This document shows positions 3,245 to 47,265 of a stretch of DNA of 64,000 nucleotides, piece after piece; position 1 is the first letter of the stretch, and each line of letters starts with the position of its first letter. Both the position numbers and the translations under genes were made by a program. The stretch comes from Dictyostelium discoideum. Lineage: Eukaryota. The notes below the pieces were generated by a model. The model had not been told where the DNA came from and did no database searches. It worked only from the letters and a program-made list of their open reading frames with translations. The DNA lies in NCBI GenBank assembly GCA_000004695.1, contig CM000155.2:1024001-1088000 (forward strand), read 5' to 3'.

Positions 3245-6001
3245 ATGTTTAGTAGTATAACAAGTAAATTATCAGCAATTTCAGGTGGATCAAGTAAAAA
3301 TGATTATAAAGAAGCAAATTATTATAATTATTTTAGAATTTTAGAAAAGAAACAAACTGAAGAGATTGCAAGAAAAAGATGTGGTTTATATAGTTTAAAA
3401 AATCATAATAATGTATTTGTTTTAAAAGAGTTTTCAATTGAAACTGAAATTAATGATTGTAGTTCAACATCAATTTGGACACAAAGCTATTCAAATGATT
3501 CAAATACACCAGTCGAGGCAAAGTATCAATTACCATTACATCCAACATCGGTTGTATCAAATTTTCAAATTGAATATCAAGGTAAAGTAATTCAAGGTAA
3601 AATCAAAGAGAAAGAGAAAGCATTAGAGAAATACAATGATGCAATTGCAAGTGGTGGTCAAGCATTTATGGCAACAAAATCAGATGACGGTTATTTCAAT
3701 TTAACACTTGGTAATTTACCACCAAAAGAGAATGTTAAAGTTAGAGTTGTAATCTCATCAGAGTTGGGTACACATACCGATGGTCAATTACATTATTGTC
3801 TTCATCGTTATATGTTCCCATCTTATGCATTCAATTTCAACTATAATGTAGTTTTAAAATTTTCAATTCCAATTAAATCGATTGATTGTGATGGTTTTGA
3901 TGTAAATGTAAATTATAAAGAGAATTCAAGTAAAAAAGAAGCAAAAATCACATCAAAATCACAGCATACAAGTGGTGTTAAAAAGAATATAATTTTAATT
4001 ATTCAACCTGTTGAGCTAAATGAACCAAAATCCATGATTGAATATATTGGTGGTGGCGATGATAAATCTTATGCAACAGCAATTAATTTTTATCCATCAT
4101 TCAAGAATGTTAATCCAGATGAAGTTTATCAAAAGAGTGAATTTATTTTCTTAATTGATTGTTCTGGTTCAATGAGTGGTCAATCGATTAATAAAGCTAG
4201 ACGTGCTATGGAAATTATTATTAGATCATTGAATGAACAACATAAAGTAAATATCTATTGTTTTGGTTCATCTTTTAATAAGGTATTCGATAAATCAAGA
4301 GTTTACAATGATGAAACCTTAGAGATTGCAGGTTCATTTGTTGAGAAAATTTCAGCAAATTTGGGTGGCACAGAATTATTACCACCAATGGTTGATATTC
4401 TTTCCTCTCCAAATGATCCAGAGTATCCAAGACAAGTTTTCATTCTAACCGACGGTGAAATCTCTGAAAGGGATAAATTAATTGATTATGTAGCAAAGGA
4501 AGCAAATACAACTCGTATCTTCACCTATGGTATTGGTGCTAGTGTCGATCAAGAATTGGTTATTGGTCTTTCAAAAGCATGTAAAGGTTATTATGAAATG
4601 ATCAAAGAGACTACCAATATGGAGAAACAAGTAATGAAGTTATTAAATGTTGCATTTGAACCAATGCTTTCAAATATTAAATTGGATTGGTCATCATGTG
4701 GTCTTGTTGATGTCATTCAAGCACCTTCTCACATTAGACCACTTTTCAATCAAGAGAGAATGATGATCTATTCAATGATACCATCAAATCAAACCAATCA
4801 AGATATCATCAATGCCTCTATTGAGACTTCAAAACCATTAATAATCACTTTAACTGGTGATGGTCCAAAAGGTAATGTTTTATCATTCCCAATCACTTTA
4901 GATTTTAAAAATGATCTTTCTACAAATTCAAATCAAATTCATACTCTAGCTGCTTTTAAACATATTCAAGATCTTGAAGAAAGTGAAAGAAAAGAAAAGA
5001 AGGATAATAAAGATAAAATCGTTGAATTGGGTAAGAAATATGGTTTAGTTTCAAAACATACCTCTTATATTGTTACCGCTGATTCTGATAATGTCACTGA
5101 AGAAACAATGAAAACTGTTGACATTATGAATCAATCACCTCCTATTCGTCCTGGTGGTCGTATTGTTTCTAGAGGTGGTGGTAGAAGTGGTGCTAGTGGT
5201 GCTTTATCTTCAAGTATTTTGTCAAGAAAACGTTCATCCTCCCCATCTACTGCTACTAAACGATCTTCTTCATCTTCATTTTCATCTTCATATTTATCTT
5301 TATCATCTTCATCCCAAAAGAAGAAAAAAGAAGTTAGTAGAAGTGATGATGATGACGATGATGAAAAAATAGAAAATTGTGTTGAAAGTTATGAAAGTGA
5401 CGGAGGTGATCAATCAAGTGAACAAGATGAAGAAGAAGAAGACGATTGTGATGATTTCCATGAAGATCTAGACGAAGATTTAGGTGCTACCGCAATGGAT
5501 GTTGATAAAAAAGAATGTGAAAAAGAATGTAAAAAGAAAGATTCTTCAAAAGTTGACCTTAAAGTCAAACCTTCAAAAGTACCTCTACCATCAAGATCAC
5601 CTTCAGTTTCAAAACCAACAACAACATCACTACTTTCTCCATCTCCAAAATCAGCACCATCAGCACCATCACAACAAAAATCAGTTAAAAGTACTGGTGA
5701 TTTATTAATTGATTTATTAAAAATTCAAAAATCAAATGGTTCTTGGACAAAATCTTCTATTGATCAATTGAAAATCCCAACTGACAAAGCACCTGCCGAA
5801 TTATCAACTACTGAATTAAATGACATTTGGGTAACCATTATCGTTATTGCAAAGATTGTAAAATTCTTCTCATCTGAAAAAGCTCAATATGAACTTGCAA
5901 TTCAAAAATCAACAAGATGGGTAAAACTTCAATTATCGAAATTAAATCTTCCTGAAAATACTTTTGATAAATTTTTATCAAACGCTAAATCATTAGTTTA
6001 A
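3245..6001 (+). CDS. VIT (vault/inter-alpha-trypsin) + von Willebrand factor A domain protein, single exon, 918 aa. Ser/acidic low-complexity linker and conserved C-terminal block.
   Basis: Uninterrupted ORF. VIT signature KGKIKEKEKALEKYNDAIASGGQAF. vWA MIDAS motif FLIDCSGSMSG ... LTDGE. Paralogous to 22109..24990. Confidence 0.85.
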   Translation: MFSSITSKLSAISGGSSKNDYKEANYYNYFRILEKKQTEEIARKRCGLYSLKNHNNVFVLKEFSIETEINDCSSTSIWTQSYSNDSNTPVEAKYQLPLHPTSVVSNFQIEYQGKVIQGKIKEKEKALEKYNDAIASGGQAFMATKSDDGYFNLTLGNLPPKENVKVRVVISSELGTHTDGQLHYCLHRYMFPSYAFNFNYNVVLKFSIPIKSIDCDGFDVNVNYKENSSKKEAKITSKSQHTSGVKKNIILIIQPVELNEPKSMIEYIGGGDDKSYATAINFYPSFKNVNPDEVYQKSEFIFLIDCSGSMSGQSINKARRAMEIIIRSLNEQHKVNIYCFGSSFNKVFDKSRVYNDETLEIAGSFVEKISANLGGTELLPPMVDILSSPNDPEYPRQVFILTDGEISERDKLIDYVAKEANTTRIFTYGIGASVDQELVIGLSKACKGYYEMIKETTNMEKQVMKLLNVAFEPMLSNIKLDWSSCGLVDVIQAPSHIRPLFNQERMMIYSMIPSNQTNQDIINASIETSKPLIITLTGDGPKGNVLSFPITLDFKNDLSTNSNQIHTLAAFKHIQDLEESERKEKKDNKDKIVELGKKYGLVSKHTSYIVTADSDNVTEETMKTVDIMNQSPPIRPGGRIVSRGGGRSGASGALSSSILSRKRSSSPSTATKRSSSSSFSSSYLSLSSSSQKKKKEVSRSDDDDDDEKIENCVESYESDGGDQSSEQDEEEEDDCDDFHEDLDEDLGATAMDVDKKECEKECKKKDSSKVDLKVKPSKVPLPSRSPSVSKPTTTSLLSPSPKSAPSAPSQQKSVKSTGDLLIDLLKIQKSNGSWTKSSIDQLKIPTDKAPAELSTTELNDIWVTIIVIAKIVKFFSSEKAQYELAIQKSTRWVKLQLSKLNLPENTFDKFLSNAKSLV

Positions 6002-18525: not shown

Positions 18526-18818
18526 TTATAATAATAAATAGTAACAATAGCATTGATACGATAAAATTATTTTCATCTTTATTTTTTTTATTTATTTTCT
18601 ATTTATTCTATTTCTTTTTTTTTGAGTTTCTCCCAAGTCTATTGATTTTCCAAACCTATTAGGTTTTTGTTTTTTTTTTTTTTTAATAAAATTATTTACA
18701 GTTCTTTATTATCAACTAATAACCTTTTTAGTTTTTTTTTTTAAGGTTACCTTTATTTAGTTTTTTTTTCCGCCCACATTTTTACGGATTTTAAATTTTT
18801 TTTTTATTGATATTGATT

Positions 18819-19688
18819 AATCAGTGTTTATCCATTAAAGGAAATAGGCGATAATTAATTTTTATTTTTGAATTTTAAAATATAGTGTTGACATTATTAT
18901 ATATTTTTTTTTTTTTTTTTTTTTTTAAACATATCTCCAGTTTTAAATATGTTGATATTTAAAATTAAATAAATTAAAGAAATAAATCAAATAATAAAAT
19001 CGTAATTGGTTAGACCAAATGGTCAAAGGAGACTCTAAATACTCGGTAGATAGTTATCATATCTTTGGACTTATCGAGTACAAAAACCATGATGGCATGA
19101 AATCATAAAAATCCAGACCACCTGATGCAGACTTCTCCATCAGAAAGGCGACCAATTTCATGGTAGTAAAGACGAAATCAAAAGCAATGAATCAAAAATA
19201 AACAAACAAGGAGACAACAAGAAAAAGACCGACAGGCAACCTGACATCTGTTCCAAAGACACCTAATCTAACGCTGATGGTAGTACATCAAATGCAAAGG
19301 ATAAGAACGAGGAATAAAATAAACCCGATTAGCCAAAACAAAAAACAAAAAAATAAAATATCAACTTCAAAAAAATCTAAACCACAACAAACCAAATCAA
19401 ATGTGGACAGCGGATCCACATACAATCCAGATACTTCAAACAAAGACAACATTAATAAATCTAAAGCAACTTCAGAGGTATAAACCACAACTAAGGACAC
19501 TCTAACTGCGGTCACAGAAAAAAACAAAAGGAAAAAGCTCCAACTCAATCGCCTGCATACAACGATCCGATCTCACTGGTGACTGATAAGATTTGTTCTC
19601 GTTTTTGGTCAAGGTTGGGTCAGAGTGAAGATTGTTCTTGCTTACACATATATATATATAATCAATGTTTATCCATTAAAGGAAATAT
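18819..19688. repeat. Roughly 840-bp island flanked by 27-bp direct repeats. The inner 19000..19650 part is about 40% GC. Possible transposon remnant.
   Basis: aatca(g/a)tgtttatccattaaaggaaata occurs at 18819..18846 and 19661..19688 (1 mismatch). Inner 19000..19650 composition, with few homopolymers, is unlike the surrounding intergenic DNA. Confidence 0.3.
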
Positions 19689-20118
19689 ACATACGTTTCT
19701 ATATGGGAGGGTTTTGGATATGTAATATTTTACACATTTACATACACATTTAAAGTGTTCTTTGTGAATATAAGAATAGGTGTAATTCTGTTAAAAAATC
19801 TATTGTTTTTGTATCTAGTTCTTTGTTGACACCAATGTGTTCCATGATCTGTTTCAATGAATATTAGGGTTTTCAATTTGCTCGGTTTATAAATTCTAGT
19901 GTTTTCTTACAATTAAAGAAGGATGGACATAATCATCATTCCTTGCAAAGAGTGCAATGTTTATAATGGAGATAGTTTAATGGTAAGCATCTTGGGTGAA
20001 TCTAAACATTGTGTCTTTTGATTTTTGGATCTTTTTCGAACAATCCTTTAAAATATTTTATCAAATACAGAGCCTCCGAACATAGATGACAACAATAAAT
20101 CTAAAAAAACATCTTTCA

Positions 20119-20140
20119 TTTTAAACGGGAATCGAACATG
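20119..20140 (-). pseudogene. Isolated tRNA T-arm-like fragment (..GTTCGATTCCCG..) about 180 bp beyond the cofilin stop.
   Basis: Minus strand reads CGCATGTTCGATTCCCGTTTAAA with the canonical GTTCGATTCC T-loop box. No acceptor or anticodon arms are recognisable. Confidence 0.25.
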
Positions 20141-20287
20141 CGATTTATTCGGTTTTTATTCTTTTTTTTTAGAAAATACAGATTATTTTATTAAATTATA
20201 TGTATGAGGATTTTTTTTTTTGAATTGGTATTATATGTATGAGGAGATTTATTACTATTTATAAATATTGAATTCGTTCCTCGGGAG

Positions 20288-20319
<32 letters not shown>

Positions 20320-20326
20320 AAATTAT

Positions 20327-20740
20327 TTAGATTTTGGTACATTTTTCATAGAAACATGAATCTTTGACTTCAGAGGCATCGGTACCTTGGATTTCAACTT
20401 GGATACCAACACAGGCTTTACGTAAAGAGTCTTTTGATGAGGTGGCCATCATTTTCTTTTTAATGTTGGCGGTATCTGGGCACCAGGCAACAAAACAGAT
20501 TTTGCTCTTTTGGGCACCTTCTTCTTTGTATTGATAGTCGAGGACAACGTATCTACATTCGTTTTCTGGGAGACATTTGGTGAATTCATCGAATGAACAA
20601 CCAGCTGGTAAGGTGGAGTCAACAATGATTTCTTTTGAATCGTCAGAGATTCTGTAGATGATACCACCATATTTACGACCTAACTTTAAATCGTTGAAGG
20701 TTGAAACGCAGTTTGGAGCTAAAGCAATACCTGAAGACAT
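20327..20740 (-). CDS. cofA/cofB: Cofilin (actin depolymerising factor), 137 aa, intronless here.
   Basis: ORF MSSGIALAPNCVSTFNDLKLGRKYGGIIYRISDDSKEIIVDSTLPAGCSFDEFTKCLPENECRYVVLDYQYKEEGAQKSKICFVAWCPDTANIKKKMMATSSKDSLRKACVGIQVEIQGTDASEVKDSCFYEKCTKI matches D. discoideum cofilin-1 as I remember it. cofA and cofB encode identical proteins. Confidence 0.93.
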   Translation of the reverse strand: MSSGIALAPNCVSTFNDLKLGRKYGGIIYRISDDSKEIIVDSTLPAGCSFDEFTKCLPENECRYVVLDYQYKEEGAQKSKICFVAWCPDTANIKKKMMATSSKDSLRKACVGIQVEIQGTDASEVKDSCFYEKCTKI

Positions 20741-20808
20741 TTTTTATATATAGTTTTTTATTTAGTTGAGTAAGTTCGGTTTTTATTCGGTTTTTATTCA
20801 AAAAACAT

Positions 20809-20891
20809 TGCAAGAGGCGAGATTCGAACTCGCGAACCGAATGGATGAGATCTTAAGTCACACGGATTTAACCAGACTTTCCTACCCTTGC
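20809..20891 (-). tRNA. tRNA-Leu (anticodon UAA), type II with long variable arm.
   Basis: Minus-strand read GCAAGGG..GGAAAGTCTGGTTAAATCC..TGTGA CTTAAGA TCTCA..TCCATTCGGTTC..GCGAG TTCGAAT CTCGC CTCTTGC A. 7-bp acceptor stem with one G-U pair, T-loop TTCGAAT, anticodon loop CU-UAA-GA. Confidence 0.8.
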
Positions 20892-21924
20892 TTTGATGAA
20901 AATAAAAATTTATAGCCAAATAATTATGGATATAAAATTTGCTAAAATATTGAGGGTTATTTTTTTTTTAATAAATTTTTAATAAAAAATAAAGACCATA
21001 GTATTCTGGAATTTTATCATCTAAAAAATTCCTAATAATAGATTATTCAAAAAAATAAACCTTCAATTTTTTATTTTAAAAACAAAACATTATACACTCT
21101 TTTTTTATTAAAAATAAAAAACATGAAAAAAAAAAGAGGATAGTTCTTTAAATAAACCTTTTATTTTTTTTATTAGAAAAAAAAAAAAAAAAAAAAAAAA
21201 AAATAGGTTCTCAACATCCATTTTTTTTTTATATTTTTTTATATCATTTTGTGTATTTTTGAATGTTAAATTTATTTATACTAAATCAATATTAAAAATA
21301 AATAAAAATAAACGGAATTAATTTCTAAACGAAAAAAAATATTATGTATTATTTTTAATTTTTTTTTTTTTTTTTTTTTATCATTTCACAAAGGATAATA
21401 ATATTCTTTTTTATTTTTTTATTTAAAAATTCTTTTATTGTTATTATAATTAAATATTATTAGTAATGATAAACAAAGAAATCGAAAATAAATTAATTAA
21501 AAAAATAACAATTATTAATTTGTGGCCATTTCAAAATACTGGGCTCAAGCCGTTAATATACCTATTTTTTTTTCCTTTTTAACTAATATATAAAAAAAAA
21601 AAAAAAAAAAAAATTAAAAAATAATATTTTCATCGAAAATCGTTTGTAAAATGAAAAAAATCTAATCGATCACCCCACTTTTGGAATGAAACTTTATTTT
21701 AATATTAATAAAAAAATTTTTTTTTTTTTTTTTCAAAAGATATTTTTCAAAAAATTTTTTTAAAACTTTTTTTTAGAATACACAGAATGGTGATTAATTT
21801 TCAAATCAAAAAAAAAAAAAAAATTAAAACCCTATAAAAACAATTTTTATTTTTTATTTTCAGTTTAAAAATTTAAAACATTGTATAATAAATTAAATAA
21901 TTTAATTTTTATAAATAATAATAA

Positions 21925-22108: not shown

Positions 22109-24990
22109 ATGAATTTTATTAAAAAAGTAATTGGTGGTGGTAGTAGTAAAAGTAAAACCGATATTAAAATTGAAGATGAACAACATGAACAACAACATGA
22201 ACAACAACATGAAAAACAACAAATTCCAGATAAAATATCAACAAGTAAAGTAAATTCACCATGTGTTCCACCAACTTGTACATACATTTCAAAAGAAAAT
22301 GTTAGATCAGATTTATCATTAATTAAAGATTTCAATTCAGCCTATTACTATAACTATTATAGAACATTGGAAAAGAATTCCACTAATTTATTAACAAGTC
22401 CAGGTTTAAATACTAAAGTTGTTAGTAACCAATTTACATTAAAAGAATTTAATATTGTTTCAGAGATGACAGATTCATGCATTGTTTCAGTATGGACTCA
22501 GAAATACTCTAATCTATCATTGACACCAGTTGAGGCAGTCTATCAAATCCCATTAGCACCATATGCTACAGTTTCAGATTTTTCTGTAATCTTGAAGGAT
22601 AAAGTATTAAAAGGCAAAATCAAGGAGAACGAAAAGGCCAAAGAGAAATACAACGATGCCATCGCAAGTGGCGGCCAAGCATTCCTTGCTGAAAAAGTTG
22701 AAGGTTTCTTTAAATTACAAATTGGTAATTTACCACCACAAGAAGATGTAACTGTAAATATCACAATTACCTCTGAAATCGGTACACATTTAGAATCATT
22801 ACATTTCTGTTTACATAGATTCATTTTCCCAAAAAGTGCATTCAAATTCAATTATACATTGAATGCATCCCTTTCAACTCCAATCGAAACCATTGAAATG
22901 GATCATTTCCAACCAACCATAACCTACAAAGATGAATCAAAAACAAATGCAACCGTTACAATTTCAACAGAAAATGGTGTTTCAAATAATATCATTGCAA
23001 TTATTGTTCCAAAATATTCTGAAAAACCTGAATCTTTTATTGAATATTCACCAATTGATAAATCATATGCTCTTGCTATTAACTTTTATCCAAAATTCAG
23101 TGTTGGTCTTGATGAAGTTGATCAAAAATCTGAATTTATTTTCGTATTAGATTGTTCAGGTTCAATGTCTGGTAAACCAATTGAAAAATCAAAAATGTAA
23201 TTATTATTATTATTAAAAATATAAATATATCAATTTTAAATTAATTATTAATATTTTTAAATTTTTATTTTTTTTATAGGGCATTAGAAATTTGTATGAG
23301 AAGTTTAAATGAAAATTCTAAATTTAATATTGTTTGCTTTGGTAGTAATTTTAATAAATTATTTGAAACTTCAAAACATTATAATGATGAAACATTACAA
23401 AAAGCAAGTGAATATATTAATAGAATTGATGCAAATTTAGGTGGTACAGAATTATTAGAACCAATTGTTGACATTTTATCAAAAGAAAGTGATCCAGAAT
23501 TCCCAAGACAAGTTTTCATTTTAACTGATGGTGAAATTTCAAATAGAGATAAATTAATTGATTATGTTGGAAAGGAAGCAAATACAACTCGTATCTTTAC
23601 CTATGGTATTGGTTCTTATGTTGATAAAGAGCTTATTGTTGGTGTTTCAAAAGCATGTAAAGGTTATTATGAAATGATTGTTGATAACTCTGATATGGAA
23701 GAAAAAGTTATGAAATTAATTAGTATTGCAATGCAACCAACTCTATCAAATATTAAAGTTGATTGGGGTGTTCTTTCAAATGTAGTTCAATCACCTGCTC
23801 AAATTAGACCATTATTCAATCAAGAAAGAATGATGATTTATGCAACCCTTGATAAAGAGCCAACTGAAAAACAAGTAACTGTCATTCTAAGTGGTAATGG
23901 TCCATTGTCTGAAAGAATTTCATTCCCAGTGGATTTGGATTTCAGTAAAGCAAATCAATCAACTAGTCATATTCATACTTTATCAGCTTTCAAACATATT
24001 CAAGATCTTGAAGAAAGTGAAAGAAAAGAAAAGAAGGATAATAAAGATAAAATCGTTAAATTGGGTAAGAGATTTGGTTTAGTTTCAAAACATACCTCTT
24101 ATATTGTCACTGCTGATTCTGATAAAGTAACTGAAGAAACAATGAAAACTGTTCAAGTTTTAGAACCAACTCAACAAATCAATACCAGTCCTGGTAGTGG
24201 TAGTGGTTTTATTCCAACAACAAGAGTTCAAGGATCATCATCAGTTTTCCCATCCTCACCAACACCTTTGTCAGGCCCATCACCATACACAGTCTGTGCA
24301 CCACCACCACCACCACCAACATCATCACCATACACAAACTGTGCACCACCTCCACCACAATTTTCCAGATGTATTGCACCACAACCATATCAAAGTGCAC
24401 CAGCACCACCAGCACCACCAGCACCATCAAGACTTTCTCAAGCACAATCACAAATGGATTATTGTGATCAAGAATTATTATGTGAAAGTTTAGAGGGTGA
24501 TTTATTAGTTGAAGAAGAGGAGCTAGAATGTAAGGAAATAGAATGTTCACCACCACAAAAATTAAGTTATATTACACCATTTGCACCAACATCACAAATT
24601 AGTCAATCATCAAGAGAATGTAGATCTAAAAAATCCTCTTCTCCAACAATACAAAAATCATCATCATTACCATCAAGACCATCAACATCATCTTCATCAT
24701 TAATTGAAATTATTCGTCAACAAAAAGCAAATGGTTCATTCACAAAATCATCAGTTTCAAGCTTTATTAATGTTGATACACCACCACCATCATCAGATAT
24801 TCCAGAAGATGTTTGGACAACTCTTTTAATCATTGCAAACTTTATCTTAAACTTTGATTCACAAAAGAGTCAATGGGAATTAGTTTCACAAAAAGCTACT
24901 AAATTTGTTAAACAACAAATTATTAAATCTTCAATCGCTTCAACTTTTGAAACCCTTTTAGAATCTGCTAAAAAATCAATTTCAAATTAA
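22109..24990 (+). CDS. VIT + vWA domain protein, paralog of 3245..6001. Two exons approx 22109..23196 and 23280..24990, about 932 aa.
   Basis: VIT signature KGKIKENEKAKEKYNDAIASGGQAF. vWA MIDAS FVLDCSGSMSG. Intron GTAATT..TTTATAG (83 nt) falls exactly where paralog 1 is uninterrupted (..SKM|ALEICMRSLNE vs ..RRAMEIIIRSLNE). C-terminal blocks IQDLEESERKEKKDNKDKIV.LGK..GLVSKHTSYIVTADSD.VTEETMKTV and ANGS.TKSS are near-identical to paralog 1. Confidence 0.85.
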
Positions 24991-46212: not shown

Positions 46213-47265
46213 TGATGATTATGACAATAGGTATGATGAAGAGGATCATCTTGTAGATTTTGAAGAAGATGATAAATTCTCATCTTCATCATCTTCATCA
46301 TCTTCATCAAATTCATTGTCAACTTTAGATCAACAACAATATAGCCAGCAGCATCATCATCATCATCACCACCATCATCATAAAAATTCAAATACATTGG
46401 TTGATAGTAGTGGTGGTAGTAGTAGTAGTGGTAGTAAATTATCATATACATTAACATTTATATTTGGTTTAATTGTTATATTTGCATGTATTTTTTATTT
46501 TTCAAAGAATTTAGTATCATTTTTAGAGTTTGTAAAAGAGTTGGGTTTATTGGGTAATGTGATATTGGGTATCGCATTCTTACCAACTGGTATACCATTG
46601 GCAATATTTAGTATATATATACCGTTGACATTATCAGCTGGTTTCATTTATGGATTCGTACCAGGTTTCATCACGGTTGCTATTGGAAGTGCAATCTCTG
46701 CAAGTTTTGGATTTTGGACAACTAGAAAATTATCTTTGAAATTCTTTGAATCAAAAATTGAACAATCACCAAAATTATCTTCACTAAGAAATAGAGTTGA
46801 ACAACATCCTTTCAAAATTATAATCATTATGAGATTATTACCAATTCCATTTGGTATTCAAAATGGTTTATGTGCTGTATGTGTATATTATTATTATTAA
46901 TATTAATATAGTAATACATAAAAAAATATTTACTAATAATTATTATTATTTATTAAAAGGTAACAAGAATTTCATATACAAAATTTATTTATTCATCAGT
47001 GATTGGGTTAACATTTGAAAATCTATTATTATCTTATCTAGGTAGTTCTATAAAATCAATAACAGATATTACAAATGGTCATCAAAATGCGTTTTCATCA
47101 TATCAACAAGGTTTAATTGCAATTGCGATTGTTGCTGCTATAATTTTAACTTGTATTGGTAAAAAGGTTTTATCTTTATCTGCTTATCATCAACCACTAC
47201 CTGTAACAATGAATGATATAAATAATAATAATAATAATGGTATTAATAATGAAAATAATAGTATT

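What the first reader, a model, noticed from the sequence alone, without database searches (positions are those of the whole stretch)
18819..20900. Cofilin ORF 68 bp from a tRNA-Leu(UAA), bracketed by short direct repeats and a tRNA-like fragment, next to a repeat-bounded atypical-composition island
The intact intronless cofilin ORF (20740..20327, minus) starts only about 68 bp beyond the 3' end of a same-strand tRNA-Leu(UAA) gene (20891..20809). The motif TTCGGTTTTTATTC occurs twice between the tRNA and cofilin (about 20774-20800) and again about 180 bp beyond the cofilin stop (about 20143-20156). It sits next to a GTTCGATTCCCG T-loop-like fragment (20119..20140). Further along, 18819..19688 is bounded by 27-bp direct repeats (aatca[g/a]tgtttatccattaaaggaaata), and its inner 19000..19650 part is about 40% GC. 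A second low-homopolymer block runs 19690..20170. In D. discoideum, retroelements (TRE5, TRE3, DGLT-A, skipper-2) target the neighbourhood of tRNA genes, and cofA/cofB are a near-identical gene pair. Taken together this looks like a retroelement remnant and/or a duplication junction that captured cofilin. If the other cofilin locus has an intron, this copy could be a processed copy.
Basis: partly seen in the sequence, partly recalled or inferred. Interest (0 to 1): 0.55.

Follow-up and report, generated by a model that had tools for sequence, protein, structure and literature searches.

The report
Cofilin retrocopy inserted beside a tRNA gene
The cofilin gene in this window (Dictyostelium cofB) is a very young processed copy of a spliced cofA mRNA, pasted between a tRNA-Leu gene and that gene's downstream promoter-like box, which matters because a 2011 paper states that Dictyostelium has no processed pseudogenes.

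Summary
The window matches D. discoideum chromosome 6 around cofB (DDB_G0291970).

**cofB is a processed retrocopy of cofA, the cofilin gene next to tps9.**
- cofA has a 368-378 bp intron directly after its ATG. Here that intron is removed exactly.
- Similarity to cofA starts 36-38 nt before the ATG, just after cofA's T-run.
- It ends about 20 nt after AATAAA, in a run of 9 A.
- Against the spliced parent from a near-identical genome there are 0 mismatches in 571 nt.

**The insertion is young and lineage-specific.** Eight orthologous loci all have the tRNA-Leu. Seven of them, from two other D. discoideum isolates, D. cf. discoideum, D. citrinum and D. firmibasis, lack cofilin. In those the external B box lies 30-32 nt after the tRNA.

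**The "T-loop fragment" is that external B box**, pushed 672 nt away by the insertion.

**The rest (18796-20110) is TRE3-family retrotransposon debris.** It holds an ORF2 C-terminal fragment, an inverted ORF1-like fragment (the GC-richer island) and two 3'-UTR ends. Those two ends are the 28-bp direct repeats.

Position and orientation point to TRE3-type machinery acting in trans. That step is inferred.

The parts
20809..20891 (-). tRNA-Leu(UAA) gene. Its internal B box GTTCGAATC is at 20821-20829. It is followed by a T6 RNA polymerase III terminator at 20800-20805.
   Evidence: ARAGORN; Rfam RF00005 at 49.1 bits; B-box match. An orthologous tRNA is present in all 8 related loci.
20775..20799 (-). 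tRNA-proximal copy of the target-site duplication. GAATAAAAACCGAA is at 20788->20775, preceded by an extra 11-nt tandem step GAATAAAAACC at 20799->20789.
   Evidence: Exact-match search. It abuts the first base of homology with the parental cofA transcript.
20162..20774 (-). cofB processed retrocopy. 5'UTR about 20741-20774(76); CDS 20327-20740; 3'UTR 20171-20326; A9 tail 20162-20170. A 35-nt insertion or duplication at about 20196-20230 is absent from the parent.
   Evidence: Alignment to the tps9-adjacent cofilin loci L002 and L013. The intron is precisely absent, there are 0 mismatches in 571 nt against the same-genome spliced parent, and there is one 35-nt gap. The protein equals both AX4 cofA and cofB.
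20148..20161 (-). Distal copy of the 14-nt target-site duplication GAATAAAAACCGAA, immediately after the A9 tail.
20126..20137 (-). External B box (ex-B) of the tRNA-Leu gene, GTTCGATTCCCG. It is now 672 nt from the tRNA. Removing the retrocopy and one TSD copy places it 33 nt from the tRNA.
   Evidence: The same box (cgcatGTTCGATTCCCG and variants) lies 30-32 nt after the tRNA in six of the seven loci without cofilin; the D. firmibasis box is a diverged variant (ggGGTTCGGTTCTTGg) whose distance was not tabulated. The ex-B concept is described in PMC5911963.
19638..20110 (-). TRE3-family fragment 1. It is a degraded, 5'-truncated ORF2 C-terminus (zinc-knuckle region, RCLPLNYLH..C..C) in tRNA orientation, starting just after the ex-B box and ending in repeat copy DR2.
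   Evidence: tblastn with D. discoideum ORF2 P0051 aa 825-974 gives three colinear HSPs, E=2e-17. With the D. firmibasis ORF2, which sits at the orthologous tRNA and matches RVT_1 at E=5e-36, E=7e-10. DNA identity to TRE3 ORF2 copies is 78%.
19660..19687 (-). DR2, the 3'-UTR terminal segment of TRE3 fragment 1.
   Evidence: and alignment A1. In L012 the same segment lies about 140 nt after the ORF2 stop.
19040..19549 (+). The GC-richer island. It is a degraded TRE3-type ORF1 fragment (aa about 181-354) on the strand opposite to the tRNA.
   Evidence: tblastn with the ORF1 part of P0057 and with the L015 ORF1: 19040-19153 at 50% identity over 38 aa, E about 3e-7. The match extends at low complexity to 19549, E=6e-15 with composition correction switched off. 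Moderate confidence.
18796..19030 (-). TRE3-family fragment 2. It holds the last ORF2 codons, the 3'UTR (with an internal A25 at 18903-18927), DR1 (18819-18846) and a terminal A10 (18796-18805).
   Evidence: Homology to the L005 ORF2 end and 3'UTR and to TRE3 3' ends at L015 7575-7705 and 9765-9860.

Best explanation
The cofilin gene in the window is cofB (DDB_G0291970, chromosome 6). It is a very young processed retrocopy of cofA, the intron-containing cofilin gene next to terpene synthase 9 on another chromosome.

A spliced, polyadenylated cofA mRNA was reverse-transcribed into the chromosome. It landed 9 nt after the 3' end of a tRNA-Leu(UAA) gene, just past that gene's T6 terminator, and 10 nt before the gene's external B box. 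The copy lies in the same orientation as the tRNA. The insertion duplicated 14 bp of target (GAATAAAAACCGAA) and moved the ex-B box from about 33 nt to 672 nt downstream of the tRNA.

**Shown:** precise intron loss, transcript-length homology, an A tail, the target-site duplication, empty sites in relatives, and zero divergence from the parent.

**Inferred:** the enzyme. The likeliest source is the endonuclease/reverse transcriptase of a TRE3-type non-LTR retrotransposon acting in trans by target-primed reverse transcription. [quoted passage not shown]

The sequence further downstream (18796-20110) is that debris:
- a 5'-truncated ORF2 C-terminus;
- an inverted ORF1-like piece, which is the GC-richer island;
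- a second short 3' end.

The 28-bp direct repeats are the shared 3'-UTR termini of the two TRE3 fragments. The copied segment starts at the parent's likely transcription start, so it does not include the parent's promoter. Whether cofB is expressed was not tested.
For: **Locus identity.** Neighbouring proteins are AX4 DDB_G0292024, DDB_G0291990, DDB_G0292028 and DDB_G0292030 on a 3,602,379-bp contig. The cofilin accession XP_629776 falls numerically between those of its neighbours.

**The parent has an intron.** tps9-adjacent cofilin genes span 730-792 bp for a 137-aa product in D. discoideum ACTFIW, D. cf. discoideum and D. firmibasis. The intron reads ATG|GTAATGAG...ATTTATAG|TC.

**Homology is limited to the transcript.**
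- It begins at AACTTACTCAAC, 36-38 nt before the ATG and directly after the parent's T-run.
- It ends at ...AATAAAATAATCTGTATTTTCT plus an A run.

**Zero divergence.** The same-genome parent (L013), spliced, shows 0 mismatches in 571 nt against the retrocopy, with one 35-nt insertion in the copy. There are 4 and 7 mismatches against the parents of more distant isolates.

**Target-site duplication.** The 14-mer lies exactly at both homology boundaries: 3 hits in the window against 0.10 expected.

**Empty sites.** Seven orthologous loci have the tRNA-Leu but no cofilin. In six of them the ex-B box lies 30-32 nt after the tRNA; in D. firmibasis it is a diverged variant at a distance not tabulated. 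Removing the insert and one TSD copy from the window gives 33 nt.

**TRE3 context.**
- ORF2 and ORF1 remnants lie just downstream here.
- D. firmibasis has a TRE3-like element with an open 987-aa RT ORF at the orthologous tRNA.
Against: - The insertion point, 9-23 nt after the tRNA, is closer than the published TRE3 window of 40-150 bp. It lies upstream of the ex-B box rather than downstream.
- The parent gene encodes a genomic run of 22-28 A exactly where the homology ends. The A9 in the copy therefore cannot be proven to come from a poly(A) tail. Internal priming on that A run would look the same.
- TRE5-A needs its own 3' UTR for retrotransposition, and the authors used this to explain an absence of processed pseudogenes (PMC3159450). 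If TRE3 is equally selective, another reverse transcriptase or a repair-mediated cDNA capture would be needed.
- Zero divergence could in principle reflect gene conversion rather than youth.
- No expression data were available here.
Confidence: 0.88

Rival explanations
1. DNA-level (segmental) duplication of the cofilin gene, followed by independent precise loss of the intron in one copy.
For: cofA and cofB encode identical proteins. D. discoideum laboratory strains are known to carry duplications (PMC2643946, listed).
Against: Similarity stops within about 2 nt of the predicted transcript ends on both sides. No promoter or downstream sequence is shared. The segment is flanked by an exact 14-bp duplication of the target and ends in an A run. 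It lies on a different chromosome. A duplication plus exact intron deletion with 0 other changes in 571 nt is very unlikely.
Confidence: 0.02
2. The copy is a genuine retrocopy, but it was made by something other than TRE3. Candidates are TRE5-A proteins, an LTR-element reverse transcriptase, or capture of a cDNA during repair of a break at a fragile, highly transcribed tRNA gene.
For: The insertion point, 9-23 nt downstream of the tRNA, lies outside the 40-150 bp TRE3 window. It matches the 8-23 bp window reported for Skipper-2. Nothing in the sequence identifies the enzyme.
Against: [quoted passage not shown] Integrase-mediated LTR insertion gives short duplications and no A tail. The 14-bp TSD plus A tail plus tRNA orientation is the signature of target-primed reverse transcription by a non-LTR element. 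The non-LTR family known to target this side of tRNA genes is TRE3, and its remnants are at this very site.
Confidence: 0.2
3. The 28-bp direct repeats are the target-site duplication of a single element, the 18847-19659 island, that inserted as one unit.
For: The repeats bracket a compositionally distinct block and are far beyond chance. The pair is also present in D. cf. discoideum ACTFIY.
Against: - In other isolates the repeat extends to about 80-110 nt of similarity, ending in an A-rich tail. It recurs at unrelated tRNA-Thr loci (L015 7575-7705 and 9765-9860).
- In L012 the repeat lies about 140 nt after an ORF2 stop codon.
- In L005 a single copy terminates a TRE3 fragment and is followed by A14.
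- 28 bp would be unusually long for a duplication, and no poly(A) abuts either copy on the inner side.
Confidence: 0.08
4. The island 19000-19650 is a functional non-coding RNA gene or a real terminal exon of the neighbouring 4E-BP gene.
For: Automated gene models in five new assemblies extend 4E-BP into or towards this region; the exon was mapped only for ACTFIT (about 19014-19108). A CCCATA motif lies upstream on the minus strand.
Against: - The AX4 and cDNA-derived 4E-BP proteins are 103 aa, and the D. firmibasis protein is 104 aa, without this exon.
- The intron would be about 950 bp, which from general knowledge is far longer than is usual for Dictyostelium.
- There is no Rfam hit even at E<=1.
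- The region carries internal deletions and insertions between isolates.
- It matches TRE3 ORF1.
Confidence: 0.04

Closest known systems
LINE-1-mediated processed pseudogenes and retrogenes of mammals
   Same: An intronless copy of a spliced mRNA. Homology is limited to the transcript. There is a 3' A tract and a flanking target-site duplication of about 14 bp. The copy is on a different chromosome from its parent, and its presence varies between close lineages.
   Different: Here the copy lies next to a tRNA gene, in the tRNA's orientation. This suggests that the donor machinery kept its RNA polymerase III-gene targeting while copying a foreign RNA. L1 insertions are essentially untargeted.
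TRE3 non-LTR retrotransposons of Dictyostelium (tRNA gene-targeted retroelements, 3' side)
   Same: Downstream of a tRNA gene, same transcriptional orientation, A-tailed 3' end distal to the tRNA, and close to the internal and external B boxes. Genuine TRE3 ORF1 and ORF2 debris occupies the adjacent 1.3 kb.
   Different: The inserted sequence is a host mRNA with no TRE3 UTR. The insertion is 9-23 nt after the tRNA and upstream of the ex-B box, rather than 40-150 bp downstream.
iqgD-L2, a proposed retrogene in D. discoideum AX2-214 (PMC13628810, PMC13299636)
   Same: A second, intronless copy of an intron-containing Dictyostelium gene with sequence identical to the parent. The authors interpret it as a young retrogene.
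   Different: In the passages read, no flanks, target-site duplication, tail, empty site or genomic position are given for iqgD-L2. For cofB all of these are defined.
Trans-mobilised non-autonomous TRE5-A elements (TRE5-A.2, TRE5-A-bsr; PMC3159450)
   Same: They show that Dictyostelium TRE proteins can act in trans on another RNA and still deliver it to an authentic tRNA-gene target.
   Different: Those substrates carry TRE5-A's own essential 3' UTR and land about 50 bp upstream of tRNA genes. cofB carries no retroelement sequence and lies downstream.

Membership tests
Processed retrocopy (retrogene / processed pseudogene) | Parental intron(s) precisely absent | tested here: met
   The parent reads ATG|GTAATGAG...(368-378 nt)...ATTTATAG|TC. 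The copy reads ATG|TC.
Processed retrocopy (retrogene / processed pseudogene) | Similarity to the parent confined to the mature transcript, with no promoter or downstream flank | tested here: met
   Homology starts 36-38 nt before the ATG, right after the parent's T-run. It ends about 20 nt after AATAAA.
Processed retrocopy (retrogene / processed pseudogene) | 3' poly(A) tract | tested here: inconclusive
   An A9 run follows the last shared base. The parent has a genomic A22-28 at the same point, so a tail and an encoded A run cannot be told apart.
Processed retrocopy (retrogene / processed pseudogene) | Flanking target-site duplication | tested here: met
   An exact 14-mer lies at both boundaries: 3 hits against 0.10 expected.
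Processed retrocopy (retrogene / processed pseudogene) | Empty site in related genomes | tested here: met
   Seven orthologous tRNA-Leu loci lack the insert. In six of them the ex-B box is 30-32 nt from the tRNA.
TRE3-mediated insertion | Downstream of a tRNA gene, in the same transcriptional orientation | tested here: met
   The tRNA and cofB are both on the minus strand, with cofB 3' of the tRNA. The rule is taken from PMC5911963.
TRE3-mediated insertion | [quoted passage not shown] | tested here: not met
   The TSD occupies +10 to +23 after the tRNA 3' end.
TRE3-mediated insertion | Reverse transcription by TRE3 ORF2 acting on a non-TRE RNA | not testable with these tools
   This needs a retrotransposition assay. 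TRE5-A requires its own 3' UTR, and nothing equivalent is known here for TRE3.
TRE3 retrotransposon remnant (18796-20110) | Similarity to TRE3-type ORF2 (RT/zinc-finger protein) and ORF1 | tested here: met
   ORF2 aa 825-974, E=2e-17. ORF1 aa 181-218, E about 3e-7. The reference elements lie downstream of tRNA-Thr in tRNA orientation.
TRE3 retrotransposon remnant (18796-20110) | Assignment to a named subfamily (TRE3-A, B, C or D) | not testable with these tools
   No Dictyostelium repeat library was available. Identity to the sampled copies is only about 50% at protein level and 78% at DNA level.
Dictyostelium external B box (ex-B) | A B-box-like GGTTCGANNCC motif a few tens of nt downstream of a tRNA gene, on the same strand | tested here: met
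   The motif is conserved after the tRNA in all seven empty orthologous loci, at 30-32 nt in six of them (D. firmibasis carries a diverged variant). The identical motif and its flank (aaatcgcatGTTCGATTCCCGTTTAAA) lie in the window just past the distal TSD.

The most novel reading that the evidence does not exclude
Dictyostelium tRNA-targeting non-LTR retrotransposons (TRE3 type) can occasionally copy ordinary host mRNAs in trans while keeping their tRNA-gene targeting. New gene copies would then be born at tRNA genes.

cofB would be a fully documented example. It is intact, identical to its parent, and absent from two other D. discoideum isolates as well as from sister species. That contradicts the published view that the D. 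discoideum genome has no processed pseudogenes.
Probability: 0.5. Interest if true: 0.72.

Novelty: new member of a known kind. Interest (0 to 1): 0.6.

Why it matters
Siol et al. 2011 (PMC3159450) state that the D. discoideum genome contains no processed pseudogenes. They explain this by the strict substrate specificity of TRE proteins.

cofB shows most of the expected hallmarks of retroposition:
- precise intron loss;
- transcript-length homology;
- an A tract (the parent encodes an A run at the same point, so this one is ambiguous);
- a 14-bp duplication of the target;
- empty sites in relatives.

It also lies at a tRNA gene. That gives a natural test case for three questions:
- Can TRE3-type machinery act on host mRNAs?
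- Is target choice carried by the proteins rather than by the RNA?
- How often does this compact genome gain genes in this way?

There are practical consequences too.
- cofA and cofB transcripts are identical except for a 35-nt 3'-UTR insertion. Expression and knockout studies of cofilin need to tell them apart.
- The insertion separates a tRNA gene from its external B box. This offers a natural experiment on what that box does.

Tried and rejected
- **ncRNA idea.** I considered a DUSE-like CCCATA motif upstream of the island on the minus strand. I rejected it: there is no Rfam match at the gathering threshold or at E<=1, the block is unstable between isolates, and it matches TRE3 ORF1.
- **Island as the last exon of 4E-BP.** Several automated gene models use it that way. 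I rejected this because the AX4 and cDNA proteins are 103 aa.
- **B-box fragment as a tRNA pseudogene remnant.** Rejected. It is the conserved ex-B box.
- **General repeat finder.** It was swamped by AT-rich low complexity and gave nothing usable.
- **Protein searches.** The searches with cofilin and with the VWA neighbour returned no close Dictyostelium orthologues. For cofilin, the 90% cluster is represented by a tps9-like protein because of fused gene models. Orthologous loci were reached instead through exact cluster look-ups.
- **Literature.** Aizawa et al. 1995 (PMID 7738034), the original two-gene cofilin paper, is not held. Searches for cofB and DCOF2 found nothing usable. I therefore could not check whether the missing intron was noted in 1995, or whether cofB corresponds to the copy I recall being reported as unexpressed.
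- **Other copies of the island.** None exists in the window or in the fetched loci. Its multi-copy nature could be shown only for the repeat and 3'-UTR segment.
- **Second ARAGORN tRNA.** The call at 46781-46865 was examined and set aside as a probable false positive.
Full report
**Observation**

The window is AT-rich (21.8% GC) and comes from Dictyostelium. ARAGORN and Rfam place a tRNA-Leu(UAA) at 20809-20891 on the minus strand. An intact 137-aa cofilin ORF lies at 20740->20327 on the same strand, with its ATG 68 nt past the tRNA 3' end.

- The 14-mer TTCGGTTTTTATTC occurs at 20775-20788 and 20786-20799 (overlapping) and at 20148-20161. That is 3 matches against 0.10 expected, and no shuffle reaches 3.
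- GTTCGATTCCCG is at 20126-20137 on the minus strand.
- The direct repeats are 28 nt with one mismatch, at 18819-18846 and 19660-19687. Two matches against 0.00 expected.
- The island 19000-19650 is 36.7% GC, and 19690-20170 is 28.9%.

An independent assembly (GCA_054883475.1, locus L001/L006) is colinear at 99.5% over 20 kb. It is identical over 18780-20180.

**Which locus this is**

An exact cluster look-up shows that the cofilin protein is shared by AX4 DDB_G0277833 (cofA) and DDB_G0291970 (cofB). The window's neighbours are as follows:
- PRL phosphatase DDB_G0292024
- 4E-BP DDB_G0291990
- VWA protein DDB_G0292028
- GST-like protein DDB_G0292030

All are on a 3,602,379-bp contig. RefSeq numbers XP_629773/4/6/7/8 run in order through the locus, with the cofilin at XP_629776. 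The window copy is therefore cofB.

The other copy lies next to terpene synthase 9 on a 6,357,299-bp contig. In D. discoideum isolates, D. citrinum, D. firmibasis and D. dimigraforme, cofilin and tps9 have adjacent locus tags or are fused into one 461-aa gene model.

**cofB is a processed retrocopy of cofA**

I fetched the tps9-adjacent locus from four genomes: L002, L003, L004 and L013. In each of the three genomes where cofilin is called on its own (L002, L003, L004), the gene spans 730-792 bp for a 414-bp coding sequence.

- **Intron.** It sits directly after the start codon: ATG|GTAATGAG...ATTTATAG|TCATCAGG, 368-378 nt in D. discoideum. In the window this intron is removed to the base.
- **5' boundary.** Similarity begins at AACTTACTCAACTAAAT, 36-38 nt before the ATG. 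In the parent this follows a long T-run. From general knowledge of Dictyostelium promoters, that is the usual position of a transcription start.
- **3' boundary.** Similarity ends at ...AATAAAATAATCTGTATTTTCT, about 20 nt after an AATAAA. The window then has A9, and the parent has A22-28.
- **Flanks.** Immediately outside both boundaries lies GAATAAAAACCGAA, read on the minus strand. The tRNA-side copy carries an extra 11-nt tandem step.
- **Divergence.** Against the spliced parent from the same genome as L001 (L013), the 571 shared nucleotides show 0 mismatches. The only difference is a 35-nt insertion or duplication in the copy's 3' UTR. Against the parents of ACTFIW and D. cf. discoideum there are 4 and 7 mismatches.

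**Empty sites**

Using the PRL phosphatase as an anchor, I fetched eight orthologous loci. All carry the tRNA-Leu(UAA). Only the AX4-like genome carries cofilin there. The locus has no cofilin in these seven genomes:
- D. discoideum ACTFIR
- D. discoideum ACTFIW
- D. cf. discoideum ACTFIZ
- D. cf. discoideum ACTFIY
- D. citrinum, two strains
- D. firmibasis

In these, the tRNA is followed by a B-box-like motif, for example ...aacgcatGTTCGATTCCCG. The distance is 30-32 nt in the four D. discoideum and D. cf. discoideum loci measured directly. The two D. citrinum loci give a similar distance by my count of the printed sequence. The D. firmibasis motif is a diverged variant (ggGGTTCGGTTCTTGg) whose distance I did not tabulate.

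The window has the same motif and flank (aaatcgcatGTTCGATTCCCGTTTAAA) directly after the distal 14-mer. Removing the retrocopy and one 14-mer copy restores a 33-nt spacing. The insertion displaced it by about 640 bp.

The insertion lies just past the tRNA's T6 terminator, so the tRNA coding region and terminator are intact.

**What made it**

The signature is a host mRNA with an A-rich 3' end and a 14-bp duplication. This is the signature of target-primed reverse transcription by a non-LTR element.

[quoted passage not shown] This tRNA is also a repeated landing site:
- D. firmibasis has a TRE3-like element with an open 987-aa RT ORF right after the orthologous ex-B box.
- D. citrinum and D. 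discoideum ACTFIR have ORF1- or RT-encoding insertions upstream of the tRNA.

The position (+10 to +23, before the ex-B box) is closer than the published 40-150 bp. The enzyme assignment therefore remains an inference.

**The rest of the flagged interval is TRE3 debris**

Reading the minus strand away from the tRNA:
- **Fragment 1, 20034->19638.** It matches the zinc-knuckle C-terminus of D. discoideum TRE3-type ORF2 (P0051 aa 825-974; three colinear, frame-shifted HSPs; E=2e-17). It also matches the D. firmibasis ORF2 (E=7e-10). It ends in DR2.
- **Island, 19040-19153 on the plus strand.** It matches TRE3-type ORF1 (50% over 38 aa, E about 3e-7). A low-complexity extension runs to 19549.
- **Fragment 2, 19030->18796.** It corresponds to the last ORF2 codons, a 3' UTR with an internal A25, DR1 and a terminal A10. 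This rests on homology with L005 and with TRE3 3' ends in L015.

The reference elements lie downstream of tRNA-Thr genes in tRNA orientation, as expected for TRE3.

Alignment A1 shows that the repeat is the core of a segment of about 80-110 nt (...ACTATATTTTAAAATTCAAAAA...TATTTCCTTTAATGGATAAACAYTGATTAATCAATA plus an A-rich tail). That segment recurs at independent tRNA loci. In L012 it lies about 140 nt after an ORF2 stop. In L005 a single copy terminates a TRE3 fragment and is followed by A14.

The repeats are therefore two TRE3 3' termini, not the duplication of one insertion. The repeat pair and part of the island are also present in D. cf. discoideum ACTFIY. This debris is older than cofB.

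The inverted ORF1 piece abutting a sense 3' end resembles the inversion products of twin priming in L1. I could not test that idea.

**Comparison with what is known**

Processed retrocopies are ordinary in mammals. In Dictyostelium, however, Siol et al. [quoted passage not shown] The only retrogene proposal I found is iqgD-L2 in 2026 papers. The passages I read give no flanks for it.

I could not access Aizawa et al. 1995. From memory, unverified, that paper described two cofilin genes, one of them not expressed.

**Verdict**

The feature is a new, fully characterised member of a known kind. Its specific interest for the tRNA-targeted retroelement field comes from its position and from the published claim that no such copies exist. 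Interest 0.6.

Noticed in passing
window 46781-46865 (minus): ARAGORN calls a tRNA-Tyr with the odd anticodon ATA here. Rfam gives no tRNA hit, and the surrounding sequence reads like ordinary coding DNA. It is probably a false positive.
   Followed up: partly
window 19014-19108; L005, L006, L008-L012 4E-BP gene models: Automated gene models for the 4E-BP gene in the new Dictyostelium assemblies (119-164 aa) are longer than the AX4/cDNA protein (103 aa) and the D. firmibasis protein (104 aa). In ACTFIT the extra terminal exon was mapped to about 19014-19108, inside the degraded TRE3 ORF1 fragment, across a ~950-bp intron. These longer models are probably mis-predictions.
   Followed up: partly
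cofilin 90% protein cluster; L013 4001-7088: Several assemblies fuse terpene synthase 9 and cofA into one 461-aa gene model. As a result, the cofilin cluster is represented by a tps9-like protein, which hides Dictyostelium cofilins from protein homology searches.
   Followed up: yes
window about 20196-20230: The retrocopy's 3' UTR has a 35-nt insertion, ACCAATTCAAAAAAAAAAAA plus a repeat of TCCTCATACATATAAT, that is absent from every parental locus. It may be a template jump during reverse transcription. It is the only internal marker distinguishing cofB from cofA transcripts.
   Followed up: partly
window 20789-20799: The tRNA-proximal copy of the target-site duplication carries an extra 11-nt tandem step, GAATAAAAACC. 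Its origin is unresolved: 5'-junction slippage or a pre-existing repeat.
   Followed up: no
L007 14018-16981 (D. firmibasis); L009 13683-15008; L011 14750-16255: The orthologous tRNA-Leu is a recurrent landing pad. D. firmibasis has a 5'-truncated TRE3-like element with an open 987-aa RT ORF just downstream. D. citrinum ACTFIU has a 441-aa ORF1-like gene upstream of the tRNA in the opposite orientation, and D. discoideum ACTFIR has an RT gene in the same position (TRE5-like).
   Followed up: partly
window 4273-5119 versus 22109-24990: A paralogue of the VIT/VWA protein gene (77-94% DNA identity over parts) lies about 17 kb away. Related loci also show VWA genes at both ends, so this is a local VWA gene family.
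   Followed up: no
AX4 RefSeq numbering: XP_629775 falls numerically between the 4E-BP (XP_629774) and cofB (XP_629776). AX4 probably annotates a protein-coding gene inside the TRE3 debris at 18.8-20.1 kb. I could not retrieve it.
   Followed up: no
L012 13360-14334; L011 13342-14129: Two D. discoideum isolates carry an extra 0.8-1.0 kb AT-rich block inside the ORF1-like island, relative to the window. It includes a duplicated motif, agagaaaggaaagatttatctatgcactat. Its nature is unknown.
   Followed up: no
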